Shown here: one piece after another, positions 43,735-54,959 of the stretch | Position numbering within the stretch: position 1 is the stretch's first letter | Layout of the letters: each line of letters starts with the position of its first letter | NCBI GenBank assembly: GCA_964016885.1 | Contig: OZ024740.1 | Coordinates: forward strand, 201,686,001 to 201,750,000 | Reading direction: 5' to 3' | DNA length: 64,000 nucleotides | Source of the DNA: Eledone cirrhosa | Taxonomy: Eukaryota | The notes under the pieces: generated by a model | What the model was told of the DNA's origin: nothing | The model's database searches: none | What the model saw: only the letters and a program-made list of their open reading frames with translations | Program-made: the position numbers and the translations under genes

Positions 43735-43916
43735 ACAGTGAAGTGGCACTATCAGGAGAGGGTTGGACACCATGCTTTCTAGCATAGTTACGTCCCTTTA
43801 CGGTCTGCGTTCAAATCCCGCCGAGGTTAACTTTGCCTTTCATCCTTACGGGGTCGATAAAATAAAGTACCAGTAATGCACTGGGTAATTGCTGGCCTTG
43901 TGCCTAAAGTAGAAAC

Positions 43917-43920
<4 letters not shown>
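43490..43920 (+). mobile_element. Two tandem copies of a tRNA-derived SINE (43490-43680, about 43733-43920); many more copies, e.g. 10528-10752, 22343-22526, 36166-36350, 38590-38728, 39533-39745, 40460-40682, 45545-45722, 55648-55830
   Basis: A-box-like tggcagtattggtagag, B-box gagttcaaatccc and central actttgcctttcatccttacggggtcgataaaataaagtaccag (resembles the Meta-domain / octopus OR-type SINE core as recalled); AT-rich tail. Confidence 0.85.
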
Positions 43921-43981
<61 letters not shown>

Positions 43982-44879: not shown

Positions 44880-45285
44880 CATCATACATCCGCTTTTCCC
44901 TGCTTGCATGGGTGGGACAGGTTTTATTCAGCACAGCATCTCTCCACTTGTCACAGTCCTTCGTCATCTCCACCGTGAGCTTCAGCGATCTGAGGTCTGT
45001 TCTCACCACCTCTGCCCATGTTTTTCGTGGTCTACCTCTACCACGTCTTCCATCAACTGGAATTTCCTGGCACTTCTTCACCCATTGGTCATCCTCCATG
45101 CGCATCACATGCCCATACCACCACAGTCTCCTCTCTCGCACACTACATTCTATCCCTCTCAGACAGAGTTTCTCTCTCAAGACCAAGACATCCATGCTGA
45201 CATTGCACATCCAACGGAGCATGCTTGCCACATTTCTCTCCAGCCGTCGCATATCCTCTGCAGTTGCTGCCCATGTCTCACAGTA
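44880..45285 (-). mobile_element. 3' fragment of a third RTE family, joined to an oppositely oriented RTE 3' UTR (about 45285-45475)
   Basis: ETWAATAEDMRRLERNVASMLRWMC...RERRLWWYGHVMR...GRGRPRKTW in ORF 44668-45303. Confidence 0.85.
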
Positions 45286-45750
45286 AAAAGTTCCCAGTTC
45301 CACACTGTAAATGTGGTTGGTGTTAGGAAGGGCATCCAGCCACAGTAAACCTGCCAGATAGTCCTATATGAGCGAGACATGGTCACCCGACCAACCTTGC
45401 CTCAAGTGGGACAACTCCCGTCTAACACATGCTAGCGTGGAAGATAGACGTTAAACGAAGATGATGATGATGATATATAATATAATATAATATATATATA
45501 ATATAATATAATATAATATAATATATATAATATAATATATATATAATTGTTTCTACTTCTGGCACTAGGCCAGCAATTTACCCAATGTATTACTGGTACT
45601 TTATTTTATTGACCCTGTAAGGATGAAAGGCAAAGTTAACCTCGACGGGATATGAACTCAGATCGTAAAGGGACATAACTACGCTGGAAAGCATGTCTGA
45701 CCCTCTACCAATACTGCCAATTCACATATATATATAATATATATATATAT

Positions 45751-47153
45751 AAGAAATTCCAAACATGGAAGCACGGCCTAGAATCAAAAGGCCTTAAAAT
45801 TAACCTGGCTAAGACTAAAGTTCTAGTTTGTAAGAAAGAAAATAAGGCGGCGGTCCCTTCCGGGAAGTGGCCATGCTCAGTGTGTAGGAAAGGCGTAGGC
45901 AGAAACTCCATTTTGTGTCCCAAATGCAAAGTATGGGTGCATAAAAGATGTAGTGGGATCACAGGTAAGCTAACTAAGAACATAGATTTTACATGTGGCC
46001 GGTGCTCTGGTGCAATAAGTAGCAGCAAGTGCCCACAAATACTAGCTCTTTCAACTGCGTAGAGGGTTCTATAGAAATAGTGGACAGCTTCCGTTACCTG
46101 GGTGACAAAATCAGCAGTGGGGGAGGGTGCTCTGAAAGTACAGTAGCTAGAGTCAGAACTGGATGGAAAAAGTTCAGAGAGTTTATACCACTATTAGCCG
46201 CTAAAGGGTTTTCCCTAAAAATGAAAGCAGGTTATCTGATGCCTGCATACGAACAGCAATGTTGCATGGCAGTGAGACCTGGGCATTGTGTGCAGAGGAT
46301 ATACGCAGACTAGAGAAACGAAGCTTGCATGCTCCGCTGGATGTGTAATAGTAATATACGTGAACGGCAAAGCATAAACGAACTAAGGAAAAAAATAGAA
46401 ATAAGAGGGATCAGATGTTGTTTACTCGAGAGAAGGCTACGTTGGTATGGTCACGTGATGCGCATGAAAGACGATAGCTGTATAACAAAGTGCAGGGCAA
46501 TAAAGATAGACAGTAGCCACGGAATAGGCAGACCCAGAAAAACCTGTTACGAGCTGATAAATTCCGACCTCACACACTTACACCTCACCAAGACAATGTC
46601 ACTGGACCGAGACCTTTGGCGGTACTCAGTAATAGAGAAGACCCACCTTACCTAAATACAAAGTAAAACCTACTACAGTCAGTAGGCATCTCTAACAAAA
46701 TACACCCCCGTCCCACCACCCCCACCCCATCCACACCGCCCCTTTCAATGTAAAGTTATGTTGGTGCCACAACATCCAGGCCGAAACAAATGAGATCGTG
46801 CAAGTGTCACGTCAAAAAACACACAGTTCATACTGTAATGTGGCCGTGTAGGCAACACGGTAAAAACCTCCCAGCCCCACACTGTAAATGTGGTTGGTGT
46901 TAGGAAGGGTATCCAGCTGTAGAAAACCCGCCAGACAGTCCACGCTGTAATGTGGCCGTGTAGGCAACACGGTAAAAACCTCCCAGCCCCACACTGTATA
47001 TGTGGTTGGTGTTAGGAAGGGCATCCAGCTGTAGAAAACCCGCCAGATAGTCCTATGCGAGCAAGATAATCACTCTTGCCTCAAGTGGGAAAACCCCGTC
47101 CAAACCCATGCAAGCGTGGAACACGGACGTTAAACGTTGATGATGATGATGAT
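45751..47153 (+). mobile_element. RTE-clade LINE (subfamily A), 5'-truncated, several frameshifts
   Basis: ORF fragments 45880-46062, 46029-46313 and 46329-46655 match the 61591 copy; (GAT)n tail. Confidence 0.95.
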
Positions 47154-50118
47154 AAATGTAATCTGAGTTTTCCGAATATTAATAATAACATTCGATTCGT
47201 TTGCCATTATGCAAACAAGCCTCAATTTTATAGCCATGTCAGTAGAATGAACACTTCATTCTTGCTCTTGTTTTGGCATTCGAACAGAACTGCAGACACT
47301 AATGTTTCTGGGTATCACCCTTCATCAGTACAGCTCACTGTTCACCTGCCAAACTGTCAGAGCTAGTGAAAATATATGCTATTTTCAAAAATACACAGTG
47401 ACTGATCGGCCTGATTTGCATATTAGCAGACTGGCTGATAATTCAAATCTGCATATTAGCAGATCCACTGATCAACCAGATTTGCATATCAGCAGACTGG
47501 CTTTGCCAAATTCAAATAAAAAAGAAAATTTTGCTCTTCATGGCTGAATACAATAAATGTAATCTGAGTTTTTTTAATATTAATAACATTCGATTCGTTT
47601 GCAACCAAGCTTCAATTTTACAGCCATGTCTTTGTGATTTTTTTTTTTGTGCTCGTCTAGCCGTGTTGTATTCTGTTGCTGTGTAGCGTTGTACATGTGT
47701 GCTCATGTCCATCTTTTTCCATTATTATTAGTTATTATTGGACTACTTTATTTAATCAAAGTTATGGCAAAATCTTTTATTTCAATTTTCAAATGCAGCT
47801 GGGGGGGGGGGGGGGGGCTTTCTTGGTCTGTAGTCTGAAGATGCCTTGTTATTTTTTACACATTTTTCTAGTTCAAATCTACAACCTCACAAAGAAACAT
47901 GGAGTTAATTTAATAGTACCACAGTGAGATAAATTATCTACACATTGCCTGTACAGTTTGTTGACCAAAGCTATACAACAGCAATAGATAGTACAGTATA
48001 TAATGAATTTACTTCAATCTAGACCAGTGGTTCCTAAAGTAGCTTCTGGGGAATTCTAGTGTTCTGTGAAATAATAAAAAATTATTACACAATTTTTTTT
48101 TTTTTTTATATATATATAATAAAGTTAGTTTCTACATAATAAATATTGTTTCATTTAATGTCTTGTTAAAATTAGGATAGGTATTATTAAAAAAATATAG
48201 GAGAGAAAATATCTGCAATATTTTTGAAAAATTATATAAGCGTTAAGTGACAAAATAAATTTGGGCACAACTGCTCTAAACTGTCATAATTTCGTTTCAG
48301 TTAAATTAAAACCTTTCAACATAATTTTATTGAAATATGAATACTTTAAAACAAGCAGTTATATCTGATAAAACCATAGTGGTTTCAGGTTGGTTGCTAT
48401 CAAAAGGGTTAAAATTGTAAATACAAGCAACAATTACAGTTTTAATCATGTCAATATTCTCAGTAACTTTATGCAAGAATTTATCTTTTAACATAATAAA
48501 ATTTGTGTCTTCTTTACTCTTCTAAATTGAAATTCTCTTTAATTACCATATAATTAAATGCCAAAGAGTTTCAGTACAAATTAGAGCATGTATCAATTCT
48601 AAATATCATACACGACACATCAAGAGTTTTAAGGCCATCTTGATTGCTAAAGCAGAGGTTAGCTCTGCAGGACCCTATAACAGGTTTCTCAATTCTAAAT
48701 ATCCAAAATTTAACTATAAATCTTAAGAACTGTTTTCTAGCAGGAAATTAGAATCTATAAAGAAAAAGATAAGGACATTGATATCATCACCATTTTATGT
48801 TTATTTTCTATTTGCACCTTTGATAAGTAGTAGTGCACCTGAGCACTGTATACAATAATTTTCATTATTATAATAATCATAAGCTGGCATCGGTTGGATG
48901 AACCATCACTATCCGAAACCAGACTGGTCAGATAACCATATCTTACTCTCAGGAAAAGAAATAAGCTGATCATCAGATCAGACAAAGGAAACTTTGTTTC
49001 TGTGAGTCTTTCCATTGCTGACACTATATGTTAGTTGCAACCTCTGGTAAAAGCATCACCAATTTTCAAATGACAAGAACTGGCATTTCAACTCAAAATA
49101 CACTACAAAACATCCCATTCCACAGACATATGTACCATTAATATATCAGAGAGCTTCAGCATGACACTGGGAATGATAAGTATAGCCTTTTGAATTAGAT
49201 ACAGTCCATTTCATGGGCTTCAAAACAGTTTCTGTCTACCCAGATTTATTCATAAGGTTTGGGTTCTGACGAGTGTTCTGCTTGATGCCATCAACTGAGA
49301 AAACTGCTTCAGTTGATGTACAAATGTTTTATCATTCCATAGAAATCTGTTTACTTAAAAAAGTTGTATATGTGGTGTGGTAAATACCACATATATAACT
49401 GGTGGTGAGTAGGAAGGTGGTCTTAGAGCCAGATGTCTCCATTTGGGTTGACGTGAGGTTAAGATAAATGACACCCAACTAGCCAGGGACTTTATGATTC
49501 TTAACCCTTTTGTGGACAGAGTATGGTTGAATGTTTAACCTTTTAGCATTTACATTACTCTATATTTACTGTTGTATTTTCACAGTAAAGGCTTTACCTC
49601 ACATAAAATCACATCTATGAGATTTTGATATTATTTATTTTAAGAACAATATCCTAACATCAGTATGAATGGCCAGTTCCAGCCATTTTGAATAGAAAGA
49701 GGTGAGATAATTCTGGCCGGACACAGCCAGTTTAAATAATAAAGGGTTAATATTAATATGGAAATACAATTTCATGATCTTCAACACAGTGTAAGAAGTA
49801 GAGTACAAATGGTTGAATAAAATACAAAGTGCTCTGTTCATCCCCTTTCTCATACAAATAAAAGTAAAGCAACAATAAGCCCAGCCACCTTGTACCAAAT
49901 CCCTGTCACATCATATGACTACCACACTATTATACACAACATACCTTCTACCATACTATCACCTCCTTCACTGTTTAGACACACCCAAATACTTCTTTGG
50001 TTTGAAGCAACAACCCTAATATTAACTTCCTCTACATAAAACATACAAGTGCATTTAGGCCATTATTTATATATATATATATATATCATCATTTTACGTC
50101 CACTCTATATATATATAT

Positions 50119-50151
<33 letters not shown>

Positions 50152-50299
50152 CACACACATACATACATATATATATATATACACACATACATACATACGC
50201 ACACACACACACACGCACACATACACATATATATAAAGAGACAGGGAGGAAGGGAGAGAGATTATATCATCATCACCATTTAAGACACAGCTATGATAT

Positions 50300-50370
<71 letters not shown>

Positions 50371-50375
<5 letters not shown>

Positions 50376-53075
50376 ATAAATGCTCTGAAATAGCGATATA
50401 TATGTGAATATAGACATAGAATATTCGAAAATATTCTGTATGTTTATAATAAACATTTTGAAGACCTAATCGCTATAGAATAGAATACGTCACGTATTAC
50501 AATTAGATTCTCGATAAAAGCAAGGGAAGTAATCTACGCGTTTCATTCTTATTAGAAATCTTCAGGACTACATATCCAGTGCTTTTATCGAGAATGACAC
50601 AGCTAGAGACTTATAGAATACTTAGCTGTGTACAGGAACTGGTTTGAAAGAGCGGTTGCCGGTCCGGCAGAAATTAGAAATTGGAATAAATGCTCTGAAA
50701 TAGCGATATATATGTGAATATAGACATAGAATATTCGAAAATATTCTGTATGTTTATAATAAACATTTTGAAGACCTAATCGCTATAGAATAGAATACGT
50801 CACGTATTACAATTAGATTCTCGATAAAAGCAAGGGAAGTAATCTACGCGTTTCATTCTTATTAGAAATCTTCAGGACTACATATCCAGTGCTTTTATCG
50901 AGAATGACACAGCTAGAGACTTATAGAATACTTAGCTGTGTACAGGAACTGGTTTGAAAGAGCGGTTGCCGGTCCGGCAGAAATTAGAAATTGGAATAAA
51001 TGCTCTGAAATAGCGATATATATGTGAATATAGACATAGAATATTCGAAAATATTCTGTATGTTTATAATAAACATTTTGAAGACCTAATCGCTATAGAA
51101 TAGAATACGTCACGTATTACAATTAGATTCTCGATAAAAGCAAGGGAAGTAATCTACGCGTTTCATTCTTATTAGAAATCTTCAGGACTACATATCCAGT
51201 GCTTTTATCGAGAATGACACAGCTAGAGACTTATAGAATACTTAGCTGTGTACAGGAACTGGTTTGAAAGAGCGGTTGCCGGTCCGGCAGAAATTAGAAA
51301 TTGGAATAAATGCTCTGAAATAGCGATATATATGTGAATATAGACATAGAATATTCGAAAATATTCTGTATGTTTATAATAAACATTTTGAAGACCTAAT
51401 CGCTATAGAATAGAATACGTCACGTATTACAATTAGATTCTCGATAAAAGCAAGGGAAGTAATCTACGCGTTTCATTCTTATTAGAAATCTTCAGGACTA
51501 CATATCCAGTGCTTTTATCGAGAATGACACAGCTAGAGACTTATAGAATACTTAGCTGTGTACAGGAACTGGTTTGAAAGAGCGGTTGCCGGTCCGGCAG
51601 AAATTAGAAATTGGAATAAATGCTCTGAAATAGCGATATATATGTGAATATAGACATAGAATATTCGAAAATATTCTGTATGTTTATAATAAACATTTTG
51701 AAGACCTAATCGCTATAGAATAGAATACGTCACGTATTACAATTAGATTCTCGATAAAAGCAAGGGAAGTAATCTACGCGTTTCATTCTTATTAGAAATC
51801 TTCAGGACTACATATCCAGTGCTTTTATCGAGAATGACACAGCTAGAGACTTATAGAATACTTAGCTGTGTACAGGAACTGGTTTGAAAGAGCGGTTGCC
51901 GGTCCGGCAGAAATTAGAAATTGGAATAAATGCTCTGAAATAGCGATATATATGTGAATATAGACATAGAATATTCGAAAATATTCTGTATGTTTATAAT
52001 AAACATTTTGAAGACCTAATCGCTATAGAATAGAATACGTCACGTATTACAATTAGATTCTCGATAAAAGCAAGGGAAGTAATCTACGCGTTTCATTCTT
52101 ATTAGAAATCTTCAGGACTACATATCCAGTGCTTTTATCGAGAATGACACAGCTAGAGACTTATAGAATACTTAGCTGTGTACAGGAACTGGTTTGAAAG
52201 AGCGGTTGCCGGTCCGGCAGAAATTAGAAATTGGAATAAATGCTCTGAAATAGCGATATATATGTGAATATAGACATAGAATATTCGAAAATATTCTGTA
52301 TGTTTATAATAAACATTTTGAAGACCTAATCGCTATAGAATAGAATACGTCACGTATTACAATTAGATTCTCGATAAAAGCAAGGGAAGTAATCTACGCG
52401 TTTCATTCTTATTAGAAATCTTCAGGACTACATATCCAGTGCTTTTATCGAGAATGACACAGCTAGAGACTTATAGAATACTTAGCTGTGTACAGGAACT
52501 GGTTTGAAAGAGCGGTTGCCGGTCCGGCAGAAATTAGAAATTGGAATAAATGCTCTGAAATAGCGATATATATGTGAATATAGACATAGAATATTCGAAA
52601 ATATTCTGTATGTTTATAATAAACATTTTGAAGACCTAATCGCTATAGAATAGAATACGTCACGTATTACAATTAGATTCTCGATAAAAGCAAGGGAAGT
52701 AATCTACGCGTTTCATTCTTATTAGAAATCTTCAGGACTACATATCCAGTGCTTTTATCGAGAATGACACAGCTAGAGACTTATAGAATACTTAGCTGTG
52801 TACAGGAACTGGTTTGAAAGAGCGGTTGCCGGTCCGGCAGAAATTAGAAATTGGAATAAATGCTCTGAAATAGCGATATATATGTGAATATAGACATAGA
52901 ATATTCGAAAATATTCTGTATGTTTATAATAAACATTTTGAAGACCTAATCGCTATAGAATAGAATACGTCACGTATTACAATTAGATTCTCGATAAAAG
53001 CAAGGGAAGTAATCTACGCGTTTCATTCTTATTAGAAATCTTCAGGACTACATATCCAGTGCTTTTATCGAGAAT
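50371..53075 (-). mobile_element. Tandem array of a 310-bp hammerhead-containing unit (8 full copies + 225 bp); retrozyme / Penelope-pLTR-like
   Basis: Units start at 50371, 50681, 50991, 51301, 51611, 51921, 52231, 52541 and 52851, and are identical by eye. Each has a minus-strand hammerhead motif. No ORF. The left flank is (TA)n. Confidence 0.85.
50507..50595 (-). ncRNA. Type I hammerhead ribozyme motif (first of 9 minus-strand copies, period 310 bp)
   Basis: RNA: AUUCUCGAUAAAAGCA cuggauau GUAGUC CUGAAGA uUUCU aaua AGAAu GAAA CGCG UA/ GAUUAC uucccu UGCUUUUAUCGAGAAU. It has the conserved CUGAnGA and GAAA core, stem I GUAGUC/GAUUAC, a palindromic ACGCGU stem III and a GUA cleavage triplet (predicted cut between 50535 and 50534). 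The first stem II position is U-U (non-canonical). Confidence 0.8.
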
Positions 53076-53079
53076 TTAT

Positions 53080-54058
53080 TTTATTATAAACATACAGAAT
53101 ATTTTCGAATATTCTATGTCTATATTCACATATATATCGCTATTTCAGAGCATTTATTCCAATTTCTAATTTCTGCCGGACCGGCAACCGCTCTTTCAAA
53201 CCAGTTCCTGTACACAGCTAAGTATTCTATAAGTCTCTAGCTGTGTCATTCTCGATAAAAGCACTGGATATGTAGTCCTGAAGATTTCTAATAAGAATGA
53301 AACGCGTAGATTACTTCCCTTGCTTTTATCGAGAATCTAATTGTAATACGTGACGTATTCTATTCTATAGCGATTAGGTCTTCAAAATGTTTATTATAAA
53401 CATACAGAATATTTTCGAATATTCTATGTCTATATTCACATATATATCGCTATTTCAGAGCATTTATTCCAATTTCTAATTTCTGCCGGACCGGCAACCG
53501 CTCTTTCAAACCAGTTCCTGTACACAGCTAAGTATTCTATAAGTCTCTAGCTGTGTCATTCTCGATAAAAGCACTGGATATGTAGTCCTGAAGATTTCTA
53601 ATAAGAATGAAACGCGTAGATTACTTCCCTTGCTTTTATCGAGAATCTAATTGTAATACGTGACGTATTCTATTCTATAGCGATTAGGTCTTCAAAATGT
53701 TTATTATAAACATACAGAATATTTTCGAATATTCTATGTCTATATTCACATATATATCGCTATTTCAGAGCATTTATTCCAATTTCTAATTTCTGCCGGA
53801 CCGGCAACCGCTCTTTCAAACCAGTTCCTGTACACAGCTAAGTATTCTATAAGTCTCTAGCTGTGTCATTCTCGATAAAAGCACTGGATATGTAGTCCTG
53901 AAGATTTCTAATAAGAATGAAACGCGTAGATTACTTCCCTTGCTTTTATCGAGAATCTAATTGTAATACGTGACGTATTCTATTCTATAGCGATTAGGTC
54001 TTCAAAATGTTTATTATAAACATACAGAATATTTTCGAATATTCTATGTCTATATTCA
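53080..54058 (+). mobile_element. Inverted block of the same 310-bp unit (83 bp + 2 full copies + 276 bp)
   Basis: Reverse complement of the forward units; full copies at 53163-53472 and 53473-53782. A 4-nt spacer (ttat) lies at 53076-53079 and the right flank is (TA)n. Confidence 0.9.
53248..53336 (+). ncRNA. Type I hammerhead ribozyme motif (first of 3 plus-strand copies; others at 53558-53646 and 53868-53956)
   Basis: Read directly on the + strand: gtagtc ctgaaga tttctaataagaat gaaa cgcgta gattac, enclosed by attctcgataaaagca/tgcttttatcgagaat. Confidence 0.8.
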
Positions 54059-54928
54059 TATATATATATATATATACATTCCACTGCAAAGTGGTCGTGG
54101 AGGTGCCACGGCAAAAAAGTTCCCAGCACTCACTGTAAATGAGGTTGGTGTTAGGAAGGGCATCCAGCTGTAGAAATCAAGCCAGAATCAGTTCCCGTCC
54201 AACCCTTGCAAGCAGGGAAAAGTGGACGTAAAATGATGGTGATGATGATGATGATGATACACACACATATATATATATATATATACACACATACAAAAAG
54301 AGTGCTCCAAAAGTGTGGTGTCATAAGGTACAAAAGGACACCACTAGGACTTTATTATCTAATTTATTAATTATCAGTTAGTTTATTAGTTACATGTTCA
54401 AATTGTAGAGATGTAAAAACAGATGGAATGTGTGTATGTGTGTGTGTGTATACACGCCTTAATGGTTAAGATGCTTGGTTCACAATTGTAAAGTTGTAAG
54501 TTTGATTCCCCAACTAGGTGTTGCATTGTGTCCTTCAACAGAACAGTTTATTTCATGTTGCTCCAGTCTACTCAGCTGGCAAAAATGAGATGTATCTGTT
54601 AATTCAAGGGTTTAGCCATGTCTCACATTGTGCCATGCTGAATCTCCTTGAGAACTAGGTTAAGTGTGCACGTGTCTGTGCAATGCACAGCCATTTACAC
54701 AATTTCAGGAGCAGCAGTCAATGGTACTGTACTGACTGCTCCTGAAATTGTGTAAATGGCTGTGCATTTGAGTGAGAAAATTTGCTCCGAAAGCATTGCA
54801 TGTGTCCGAAGAACCCACAGTTCTAGAATCAAACAGATCCATACAATGATCGTGTCTCGAGCTATCTGCCGGTGAAACAATTGTAACACACAATAAACTG
54901 AGTCTAGATGCATCACTGATTTTTGTTT

Positions 54929-54959
<31 letters not shown>

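What the first reader, a model, noticed from the sequence alone, without database searches (positions are those of the whole stretch)
52851..54075. Tail-out inverted architecture suggests rolling-circle reverse transcription primed from both ends of a (TA)n target
Seen: ribozyme-sense strands point away from the central junction (minus on the left, plus on the right), so both RNA-sense 3' ends abut TA microsatellite. The outer ends are at different unit positions (1 and 35) and so are the inner ends (225 and 83), joined by a 4-nt spacer (ttat). The right end stops beside the unit's own catatatat tract, giving microhomology to the TA target. Known: twin priming creates 5' inversions in LINE-1, and Penelope-like insertions often combine tandem and inverted pLTRs. 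Inference: two cDNAs of about 8.7 and 3.2 turns were made from a circular or multimeric template. Permuted endpoints unrelated to the cleavage site fit a circular template.
Basis: partly seen in the sequence, partly recalled or inferred. Interest (0 to 1): 0.78.

Follow-up and report, generated by a model that had tools for sequence, protein, structure and literature searches.

The report
Back-to-back ribozyme retroposon arrays
This is one of over a thousand genomic insertions of a small repeat with a self-cleaving-ribozyme motif, most of those examined sitting as two back-to-back arrays inside a TA microsatellite; their fixed outer ends and shared variants suggest that a Penelope-type reverse transcriptase likely copied one RNA circle many times from both sides of a DNA break.

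Summary
The described anatomy is exact. It is a non-LTR retrozyme: a 310-bp unit with a minimal type I hammerhead (covariation), at roughly 1,200 or more loci. The tail-out inversion is the family norm, not a curiosity: 100 of 115 insertions examined have two arms. In 97 of 97 fully seen two-arm loci one end lies at the unit's own TA tract and the other 26-42 nt further on. This is the published Penelope-like 'tail', explained by two internal RT start sites. A coding RT/GIY-YIG family in this genome follows the same rule. The conclusion still survives on other evidence: both arms share one haplotype, rare variants are fixed through whole arrays (14 of 75 loci), in-register mosaics are rare (3), and 989 ribozyme junctions show no excess of changes. 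That favours one monomeric circle as template. Uncorrelated inner ends argue against fold-back self-priming. No RNA, partner enzyme or empty allele was shown. Known kind, unusually informative for mechanism.

The parts
50316..50369 (.). left (TA)n target tract
50370..53075 (-). left arm: 8.73 identical 310-bp units, RNA-sense on minus; outer (RNA 3') end at S165, inner end at S250 (S = unit numbered from the predicted ribozyme cut)
50370..50404 (-). PLE-type tail (S131-S165): the 26-35 nt present at this outer end and missing at the other
   Evidence: compare PMC8557442 and PMC11167929
50529..50571 (-). outermost of 9 minimal type I hammerhead motifs of the left arm (repeat every 310 bp)
   Evidence: sequence, numbering, covariation
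53076..53079 (.). TTAT spacer; with the last T of the left arm it repeats the first five bases of the right arm, likely a slippage duplication made at joining
   Evidence: sequence; origin is inference
53080..54058 (+). right arm: 3.16 units, inner end S82, outer end S130 at the unit's own TA tract
53272..53314 (+). first of 3 hammerhead motifs of the right arm: stem I GTAGTC/GATTAC, core CTGAAGA and GAAA, short stem III with palindromic loop, predicted cut after 53308 (then 53618, 53928)
54059..54076 (.). right (TA)9 target tract

Best explanation
The locus is a two-armed insertion of a 310-bp hammerhead repeat into a (TA)n tract, likely made when a Penelope-like RT/GIY-YIG enzyme cut both DNA strands and extended both 3' ends on one RNA template, probably a monomeric circle that each cDNA would travel several times. 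Shown: fixed paired outer ends, scattered inner ends, junction microhomology, one haplotype per locus. Inferred steps: (1) arrays are transcribed, self-cleave and are ligated to 310-nt circles; (2) the enzyme, probably a dimer, starts one cDNA at the unit's AU tract (S130-139, helped by 8-9 nt pairing with the target) and the other 26-42 nt downstream (mostly S165, only about 2 nt of homology); (3) each cDNA rolls for a random length (here 8.7 and 3.2 turns; mean arm about 1.5 kb); (4) the two cDNA 3' ends are joined by microhomology or short templated inserts; (5) repair fills in. A minority of insertions used a longer, mosaic multimer.
For: Paired ends: 97 of 99 two-arm loci have one short and one tail end, the other 2 run out of the fetched stretch, none has two of a kind. 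Of 89 consecutive exact tail ends on contig C1, 83 have an inverted partner arm, 4 are single-armed, 2 run into N gaps. In the set picked without regard to ends, 10 of 14 loci are two-armed. Same rule in a coding family with RVT_1 and GIY-YIG: 7 of 7 simple inverted pairs seen have one short and one long end. Published in vitro: a PLE protein cuts and extends both strands and starts at two internal RNA sites that bound the tail; dimer predicted (PMC11167929). One-monomer template: among 75 two-arm loci with at least 4 units there are 27 haplotypes, the two arms carry the same fixed set, and 14 loci have a variant fixed through both arms and in none of the other 74; single-unit variants run at 0.165 per unit, so copying of linear multimers would give up to about 45 in-register shared variants over 275 shared registers, against 2 seen plus one haplotype switch. 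Genome-wide, one such variant fills whole arrays on two different backgrounds. Circle rather than end-to-end jumping: 6 single changes at the cut/ligation site over 989 crossings, 4.9 expected, none an indel; 1 of 198 inner ends at S1-5, 3.2 expected. Microhomology of 2 nt or more in 39 of 74 joins without insert against 19% by chance, p about 1e-10. Hammerhead under selection: 6 of 10 pairs change on both sides, including C3-G8 to U3-A8; none of 38 multi-unit variants hits the 12 core positions, though only 1.5 were expected.
Against: No RNA, circular or linear, was observed. No coding PLE sharing sequence with the unit was found; the coding family examined has a longer tail (about 62 nt) and shares only a short end motif. 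Three loci (L083, L104, L072) show unit-specific variants in the same register in both arms, which a monomer circle cannot give; several others (L058, L064, L090, L076, L160, L176, L183) are mosaic in one arm or out of register. The figure of 45 assumes donors carried today's variant load, so it is an upper bound. 'Private' variants are private to the sample only: one tested fills 3 arrays on one background. 13 of 115 insertions have a single arm. The published PLE starts at sites without target homology and prefers uncut RNA, unlike steps 1 and 2 here. Most loci were picked by one exact end and nearly all come from one contig.
Confidence: 0.66

Rival explanations
1. Same two-site priming from both target ends, but the usual template is an uncut linear multimer transcribed from a donor array; circles are rare or absent.
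For: L083 has a three-site haplotype switch at the same unit in both arms; L104 and L072 share a single-unit variant in register. Uncut RNA was the dominant substrate in vitro (PMC11167929). Clean junctions and no inner-end pile-up at the cut fit this too.
Against: It cannot fix a new variant through 9-24 units of both arms; 27 haplotypes in 75 loci need at least 26 single-unit bottlenecks, while inherited in-register mosaics number 3. Arms up to about 45 units would need a way to gain units.
Confidence: 0.15
2. Only one arm is made on RNA (rolling); the second target end then primes on the new DNA of the first arm and copies it.
For: Explains one haplotype per locus and the three in-register loci, in all of which the tail arm is the longer one.
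Against: The short-end arm is the longer in 46 of 97 loci, so it cannot usually be a copy of the tail arm; 63 of 114 single-unit variants lie where the other arm has the matching unit and are not shared (first batch; may be later mutations); L064 fits neither direction.
Confidence: 0.11
3. Fold-back self-priming, as proposed for head-to-head Penelope inversions (PMC3846280): the nascent strand folds on itself and is copied back, and the hairpin is resolved by the endonuclease.
For: A few joins are nearly symmetric (7 of 99 within 10 nt). The published proposal rests on palindromes at such junctions.
Against: Inner ends of the two arms are no closer than after permutation (7 observed, 7.07 expected, p 0.57). 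Shared variants in L083 and L104 line up from the outer ends, not from the junction.
Confidence: 0.04
4. Short insertions were expanded and homogenised afterwards by unequal crossing-over or gene conversion, or the palindrome is an assembly artefact.
For: Some long arms carry repeated blocks of variants that look like later duplications (L058, L076, L090). This junction lacks independent read support.
Against: Homogenisation would have to cross the inversion and still leave 0.165 single-unit variants per unit. An artefact would not give paired unequal ends at 97 loci, locus-specific joins, or inversion-type joints in short-read contigs of another sample.
Confidence: 0.04

Closest known systems
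Metazoan non-LTR retrozymes (Cervera and de la Pena 2020, PMC7229834; Li, Clavereau and Pollet 2026, bioRxiv 10.64898/2026.07.22.740005)
   Same: Non-coding tandem unit of 170-400 nt with a type I hammerhead in each unit, dispersed loci; weak stem III with palindromic loop and a U-U at the base of stem II as described for axolotl motifs; circle-templated tandem cDNA and PLE mobilisation were proposed there.
   Different: In the passages and sections read, neither paper describes inverted arms, fixed paired ends, a microsatellite target or haplotype evidence for a monomer template. Expression and cleavage are shown there, not here.
EN+ Penelope-like elements: inverted 5'-truncated copy plus 30-40 bp tail (Craig 2021, PMC8557442; Arkhipova 2013, PMC3846280)
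   Same: Head-to-head inversion, 5' truncation, tail at one end only, (TA)n target bias, microhomology at inner joins.
   Different: No ORF; many turns of a 310-nt unit instead of one partial tandem; the one-tail rule holds in 97 of 97 loci rather than 'often' or 'optional'.
Poseidon element of Anolis carolinensis in vitro (Frangieh 2024, PMC11167929)
   Same: Two internal start sites downstream of the hammerhead that bound the tail; both strands cut and extended; AT-rich target.
   Different: There the start sites lack homology to the target and cleavage is dispensable; here one site overlaps a 9-nt TA tract and the ribozyme is conserved.
LINE-1 twin priming
   Same: Two target ends prime; inner join by microhomology; RNA 3' ends point outward.
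   Different: In LINE-1 the arms are different parts of one linear RNA with a poly(A) end and a variable second site; here both arms repeat the same sequence from two fixed sites and there is no poly(A).

Membership tests
non-LTR retrozyme | tandem non-coding unit of about 170-400 nt | tested here: met
   310-bp unit; no long ORF inside any array scanned
non-LTR retrozyme | type I hammerhead in every unit | tested here: met
   core and stems in sequence; 95% of cells paired, 6 of 10 pairs with two-sided change in 11 variants from this and a sister family (related sequences, so the shuffle is not a probability). No Rfam hammerhead hit.
non-LTR retrozyme | dispersed at many loci | tested here: met
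   1,046 and 1,258 exact outer ends in G000
non-LTR retrozyme | self-cleavage, as monomer or dimer | not testable with these tools
   needs in vitro transcription
non-LTR retrozyme | expressed as linear and circular RNA | not testable with these tools
   no RNA data were available to lay on the unit
Penelope-like element (autonomous) | ORF with RT and GIY-YIG endonuclease | tested here: not met
   none within the insertions scanned; so not filed as a PLE itself
PLE-mobilised insertion | inverted 5'-truncated copy, head to head | tested here: met
   100 of 115 insertions
PLE-mobilised insertion | 30-40 bp tail at one end only | tested here: met
   97 of 97 fully seen two-arm loci; 26-35 nt at the main site, up to 42
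PLE-mobilised insertion | microsatellite target bias | tested here: met
   TA-rich tract beyond the outer ends listed
PLE-mobilised insertion | sequence shared with the pLTR of a coding PLE of the same genome | tested here: inconclusive
   no homology to the four or five coding types seen; the genome holds far more candidates than were scored (21,231 against 150)
LINE-1-type twin priming | non-overlapping arms of one linear RNA, poly(A) end, variable second site | tested here: not met
   overlapping arms, fixed second site, no poly(A)
fold-back self-priming model | palindromic junction with matched inner ends | tested here: not met
   inner ends uncorrelated, p 0.31-0.89 over four thresholds

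The most novel reading that the evidence does not exclude
Double rolling-circle target-primed reverse transcription: one Penelope-type RT dimer holds both ends of a cut (TA)n tract and copies a single 310-nt ribozyme circle from two fixed sites about 30 nt apart, each subunit going round several times. This would be direct genomic evidence that animal retrozymes integrate through circles by PLE machinery, and would explain the PLE inverted-repeat-plus-tail signature without self-priming.
Probability: 0.55. Interest if true: 0.72.

Novelty: new member of a known kind. Interest (0 to 1): 0.55.

Why it matters
The element class and the insertion shape are each in print, so the locus is not a new system. 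Its value is as a test bed. How PLEs form tandem and inverted structures is named as open in PMC8557442, and circle-templated integration of retrozymes is a hypothesis in PMC7229834. A young family with over a thousand loci, marked by variants, lets both be tested by counting: here it supports two-site priming from both target ends, disfavours fold-back self-priming, and points to a single monomer as the usual template. It also names the RNA (310 nt), the two start sites and the target for a reconstitution, which bears on retroelement-based DNA writing from circular templates.

Tried and rejected
Rfam scan of 45000-60000: no hammerhead family among 56 matches, only low-complexity or hairpin miRNA hits below gathering score. 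Folding one motif alone: z -1.7, not significant; whole unit z -3.7. DNA search of G000 with the unit: blank, probably because its words are too common; patterns were used instead. Sequencing runs: no RNA holder listed. Short-read contigs: the TTAT junction was not among listed pieces; an empty allele could not be examined. A second laying on other organisms' contigs gave no result, so whether their copies have the same ends is open. A loose end tried as a lead to a coding partner: 0 matches. Partner sought through 14 sister-family loci, coding PLEs lying in fetched loci and one active coding family: no shared sequence. First junction analysis was confounded by haplotype variants and was replaced. 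Rows left out of counts: the second copy of the duplicated L039 insertion; overlapping fetches of one locus counted once; L039 and L046 left out; variants within 25 nt of inner joins and at S129-139 of short ends ignored; the 11 loci are not in the 115. Rejected: permuted outer ends; run-off at the ribozyme cut; fold-back; LINE-1-like collision. Target-site duplication cannot be read in a TA tract. Earlier findings of the scan: none. No dimer prediction was run, since the mobilising protein is not identified.
Full report
Observation. The array is as described. A script on the window gives a left arm 50371-53075 of 8.73 identical 310-bp units (positions 1 to 225), a TTAT spacer, and a right arm 53080-54058 of 3.16 reverse-complement units (83 to 35), between (AT)28 and (TA)9. 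The left outer end is then S165, the right outer end S130, the inner ends S250 and S82. The spacer plus one T repeats S82-86, which I read as slippage at joining (inference from the sequence).

The unit. Each unit holds a minimal type I hammerhead: stem I, CUGAAGA, stem II, GAAA, a very short stem III with a palindromic loop, GUA cut triplet. The motif definition is recalled; Rfam has no hit. An alignment of 11 variants from this family and a 65-85% identical sister family keeps 95% of cells paired with two-sided changes in 6 of 10 pairs, among them the core C3-G8 pair read as U3-A8 in 5 rows; slid controls pair at 19-50%. None of 38 multi-unit variants falls on the 12 core positions, a weak test since 1.5 were expected. 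Cleavage itself is untested.

The family. The window's haplotype of the core occurs 2,584 times. Exact junctions with TA number 1,046 at S165 and 1,258 at S130/139, so there are at least about 1,200 insertions. Twenty public runs in 17 studies and 18 coded organisms hold 67-100% of the sampled words; one laid contig of a second organism is a 340-nt wrap of the unit with 3 differences over the part laid. The host was not determined.

Architecture across loci. I examined 115 insertions on contig C1, the window included: 14 picked by the ribozyme core, the rest by one exact end. 100 have two arms (99 measured, one with a 7-nt second arm), 13 one arm, 2 run into N gaps. All two-arm loci are tail-out. 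97 of 99 have one end at S128-139 and the other at S160-172 (82 at S165); 2 extend beyond the fetched stretch; none has two ends of one kind. Among the 14 picked without regard to ends, 10 are two-armed and all 10 follow the rule. At short ends C131 is replaced by T in 66 of 108 ends counted (some loci counted twice, and a few haplotypes carry T there anyway), which fits priming by pairing of the target with the AU tract or a start at S130. Inner ends scatter: 1 of 198 at S1-5, no correlation between arms (p 0.31-0.89), microhomology of 2 nt or more in 39 of 74 joins without insert against 19% by chance, inserts in 25 of 99, several copied from the unit. Arm lengths are roughly exponential (mean 1.48 kb, sd 1.51 kb; KS p 0.02; weak correlation between arms, rho 0.23), and the tail arm is longer in 51 of 97.

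What is known. Craig 2021 (PMC8557442; passages) describes for PLEs an inverted 5'-truncated copy, a 30-40 bp tail often at one end only, and (TA)n targets, and calls the mechanism open. Frangieh 2024 (PMC11167929; parts 1-2 of 4, abstract, results and start of methods) shows a purified PLE protein cutting and extending both strands and starting at two internal RNA sites that bound the tail. Arkhipova 2013 (PMC3846280; passages) proposed self-priming for head-to-head inversions. Cervera and de la Pena 2020 (PMC7229834; passages and Discussion) define non-LTR retrozymes and propose tandem cDNA from circles by PLE RT; Li 2026 (bioRxiv 10.64898/2026.07.22.740005; parts 1-3 of 5) link them to pLTRs by sequence. 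PMC8969392 and PMC11722881 were seen as passages only. Supplements were not read; the model figure of PMC7229834 and the preprint's tables may bear on novelty. Six searches showed no paper describing inverted retrozyme arrays; the library lacks most subscription journals.

A coding control in the same genome. A family with RVT_1 and GIY-YIG, at least 150 near-identical copies and many open frames of 775 aa, has a hammerhead-like motif in its 3' region, a 4.68-kb repeat period, TA targets and two ends about 76 and 138 nt past the cut; 16 short, 16 long (one of them internal) and 2 unread among 34 motifs. All 7 simple inverted pairs seen have one of each; one further locus is complex. It shares no alignable sequence with the unit, so it shows the rule, not the partner.

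Template. Among 75 two-arm loci with at least 4 units and at least 1 per arm there are 27 haplotypes, 17 seen once; both arms carry the same fixed set, and 14 loci have a variant in every unit of both arms that is fixed in none of the other 74. Genome-wide checks of 2 of these: one occurs in 46 units at 5 places (three whole arrays on one background, one diverged locus, one single unit); the other in 25 units at 8 places (two whole arrays on different backgrounds, one pair, five single units). A variant that fills 9-24 units of both arms needs a single-unit bottleneck. Copying linear multimers would instead pass on donor mosaics in register: up to about 45 expected at today's load, 2 seen (L072, L104) plus a three-site switch at the same unit in both arms of L083. 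The S310-S1 junction, crossed 989 times, has 6 single changes against 4.9 expected and no indel, which fits a ligated circle better than jumping along a cut monomer. Against: the three in-register loci need a multimer or DNA-to-DNA copying; at least seven loci are mosaic in other ways; the expectation is an upper bound.

Verdict. A non-LTR retrozyme inserted in the PLE manner. Priming from both target ends at two fixed internal sites is well supported (about 0.85); a monomer circle as the usual template is likely (about 0.7); both together 0.66. The enzyme, the RNA, the empty allele and read support for this one junction are missing. Kind known, mechanism evidence new as far as my searches reach; interest 0.55.

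Noticed in passing
L045:6318-6818, L050:1-270, L106-L135: Older sister family (65-85% identical, unit about 313-318 bp) with the same tail-out shape and equivalent ends; its hammerhead has a longer palindromic stem III and often U3-A8 in the core.
   Followed up: partly
L031, L038, L043, L088, L093, L105; window 57439 and 47328 (minus strand): Several unrelated minimal hammerhead families in TA tracts, some as opposite-strand pairs and one in tandem with a period near 490 bp; the genome seems rich in retrozyme or PLE families.
   Followed up: no
L187:717-3026, L218-L222: Young coding PLE family (RVT_1 + GIY-YIG, 775-aa open frames, 4.68-kb period, hammerhead-like motif with U3-A8) with a tail of about 62 nt, longer than the published 30-40.
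   Followed up: partly
L036:188-3688, L073:6039-8399 (minus), L088:2062-4367, L165: Other PLE-like coding frames of at least three types lie near the fetched loci; clade labels were not tested.
   Followed up: no
L083, L176, L064: Blocks of different haplotypes within one arm: template switching between monomers or a mosaic multimer.
   Followed up: partly
L090:1699-1970: A 272-bp foreign sequence sits between the two arms, like a captured insert at the inner join.
   Followed up: no
window 43453-43973: Two tandem copies of a roughly 200-bp SINE-like element separated by TA tracts, period 242.
   Followed up: no
window 54684-54766: Near-perfect 31-bp inverted repeat with a 21-nt loop; scores as miRNA-like below gathering threshold.
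   Followed up: no
window 41983-43071 (minus): 363-aa open frame resembling a LINE reverse-transcriptase fragment by eye; not tested.
   Followed up: no
public runs X1-X20: The unit is held at 67-100% of sampled words in 18 coded organisms: close relatives or recent horizontal spread; not resolved.
   Followed up: partly
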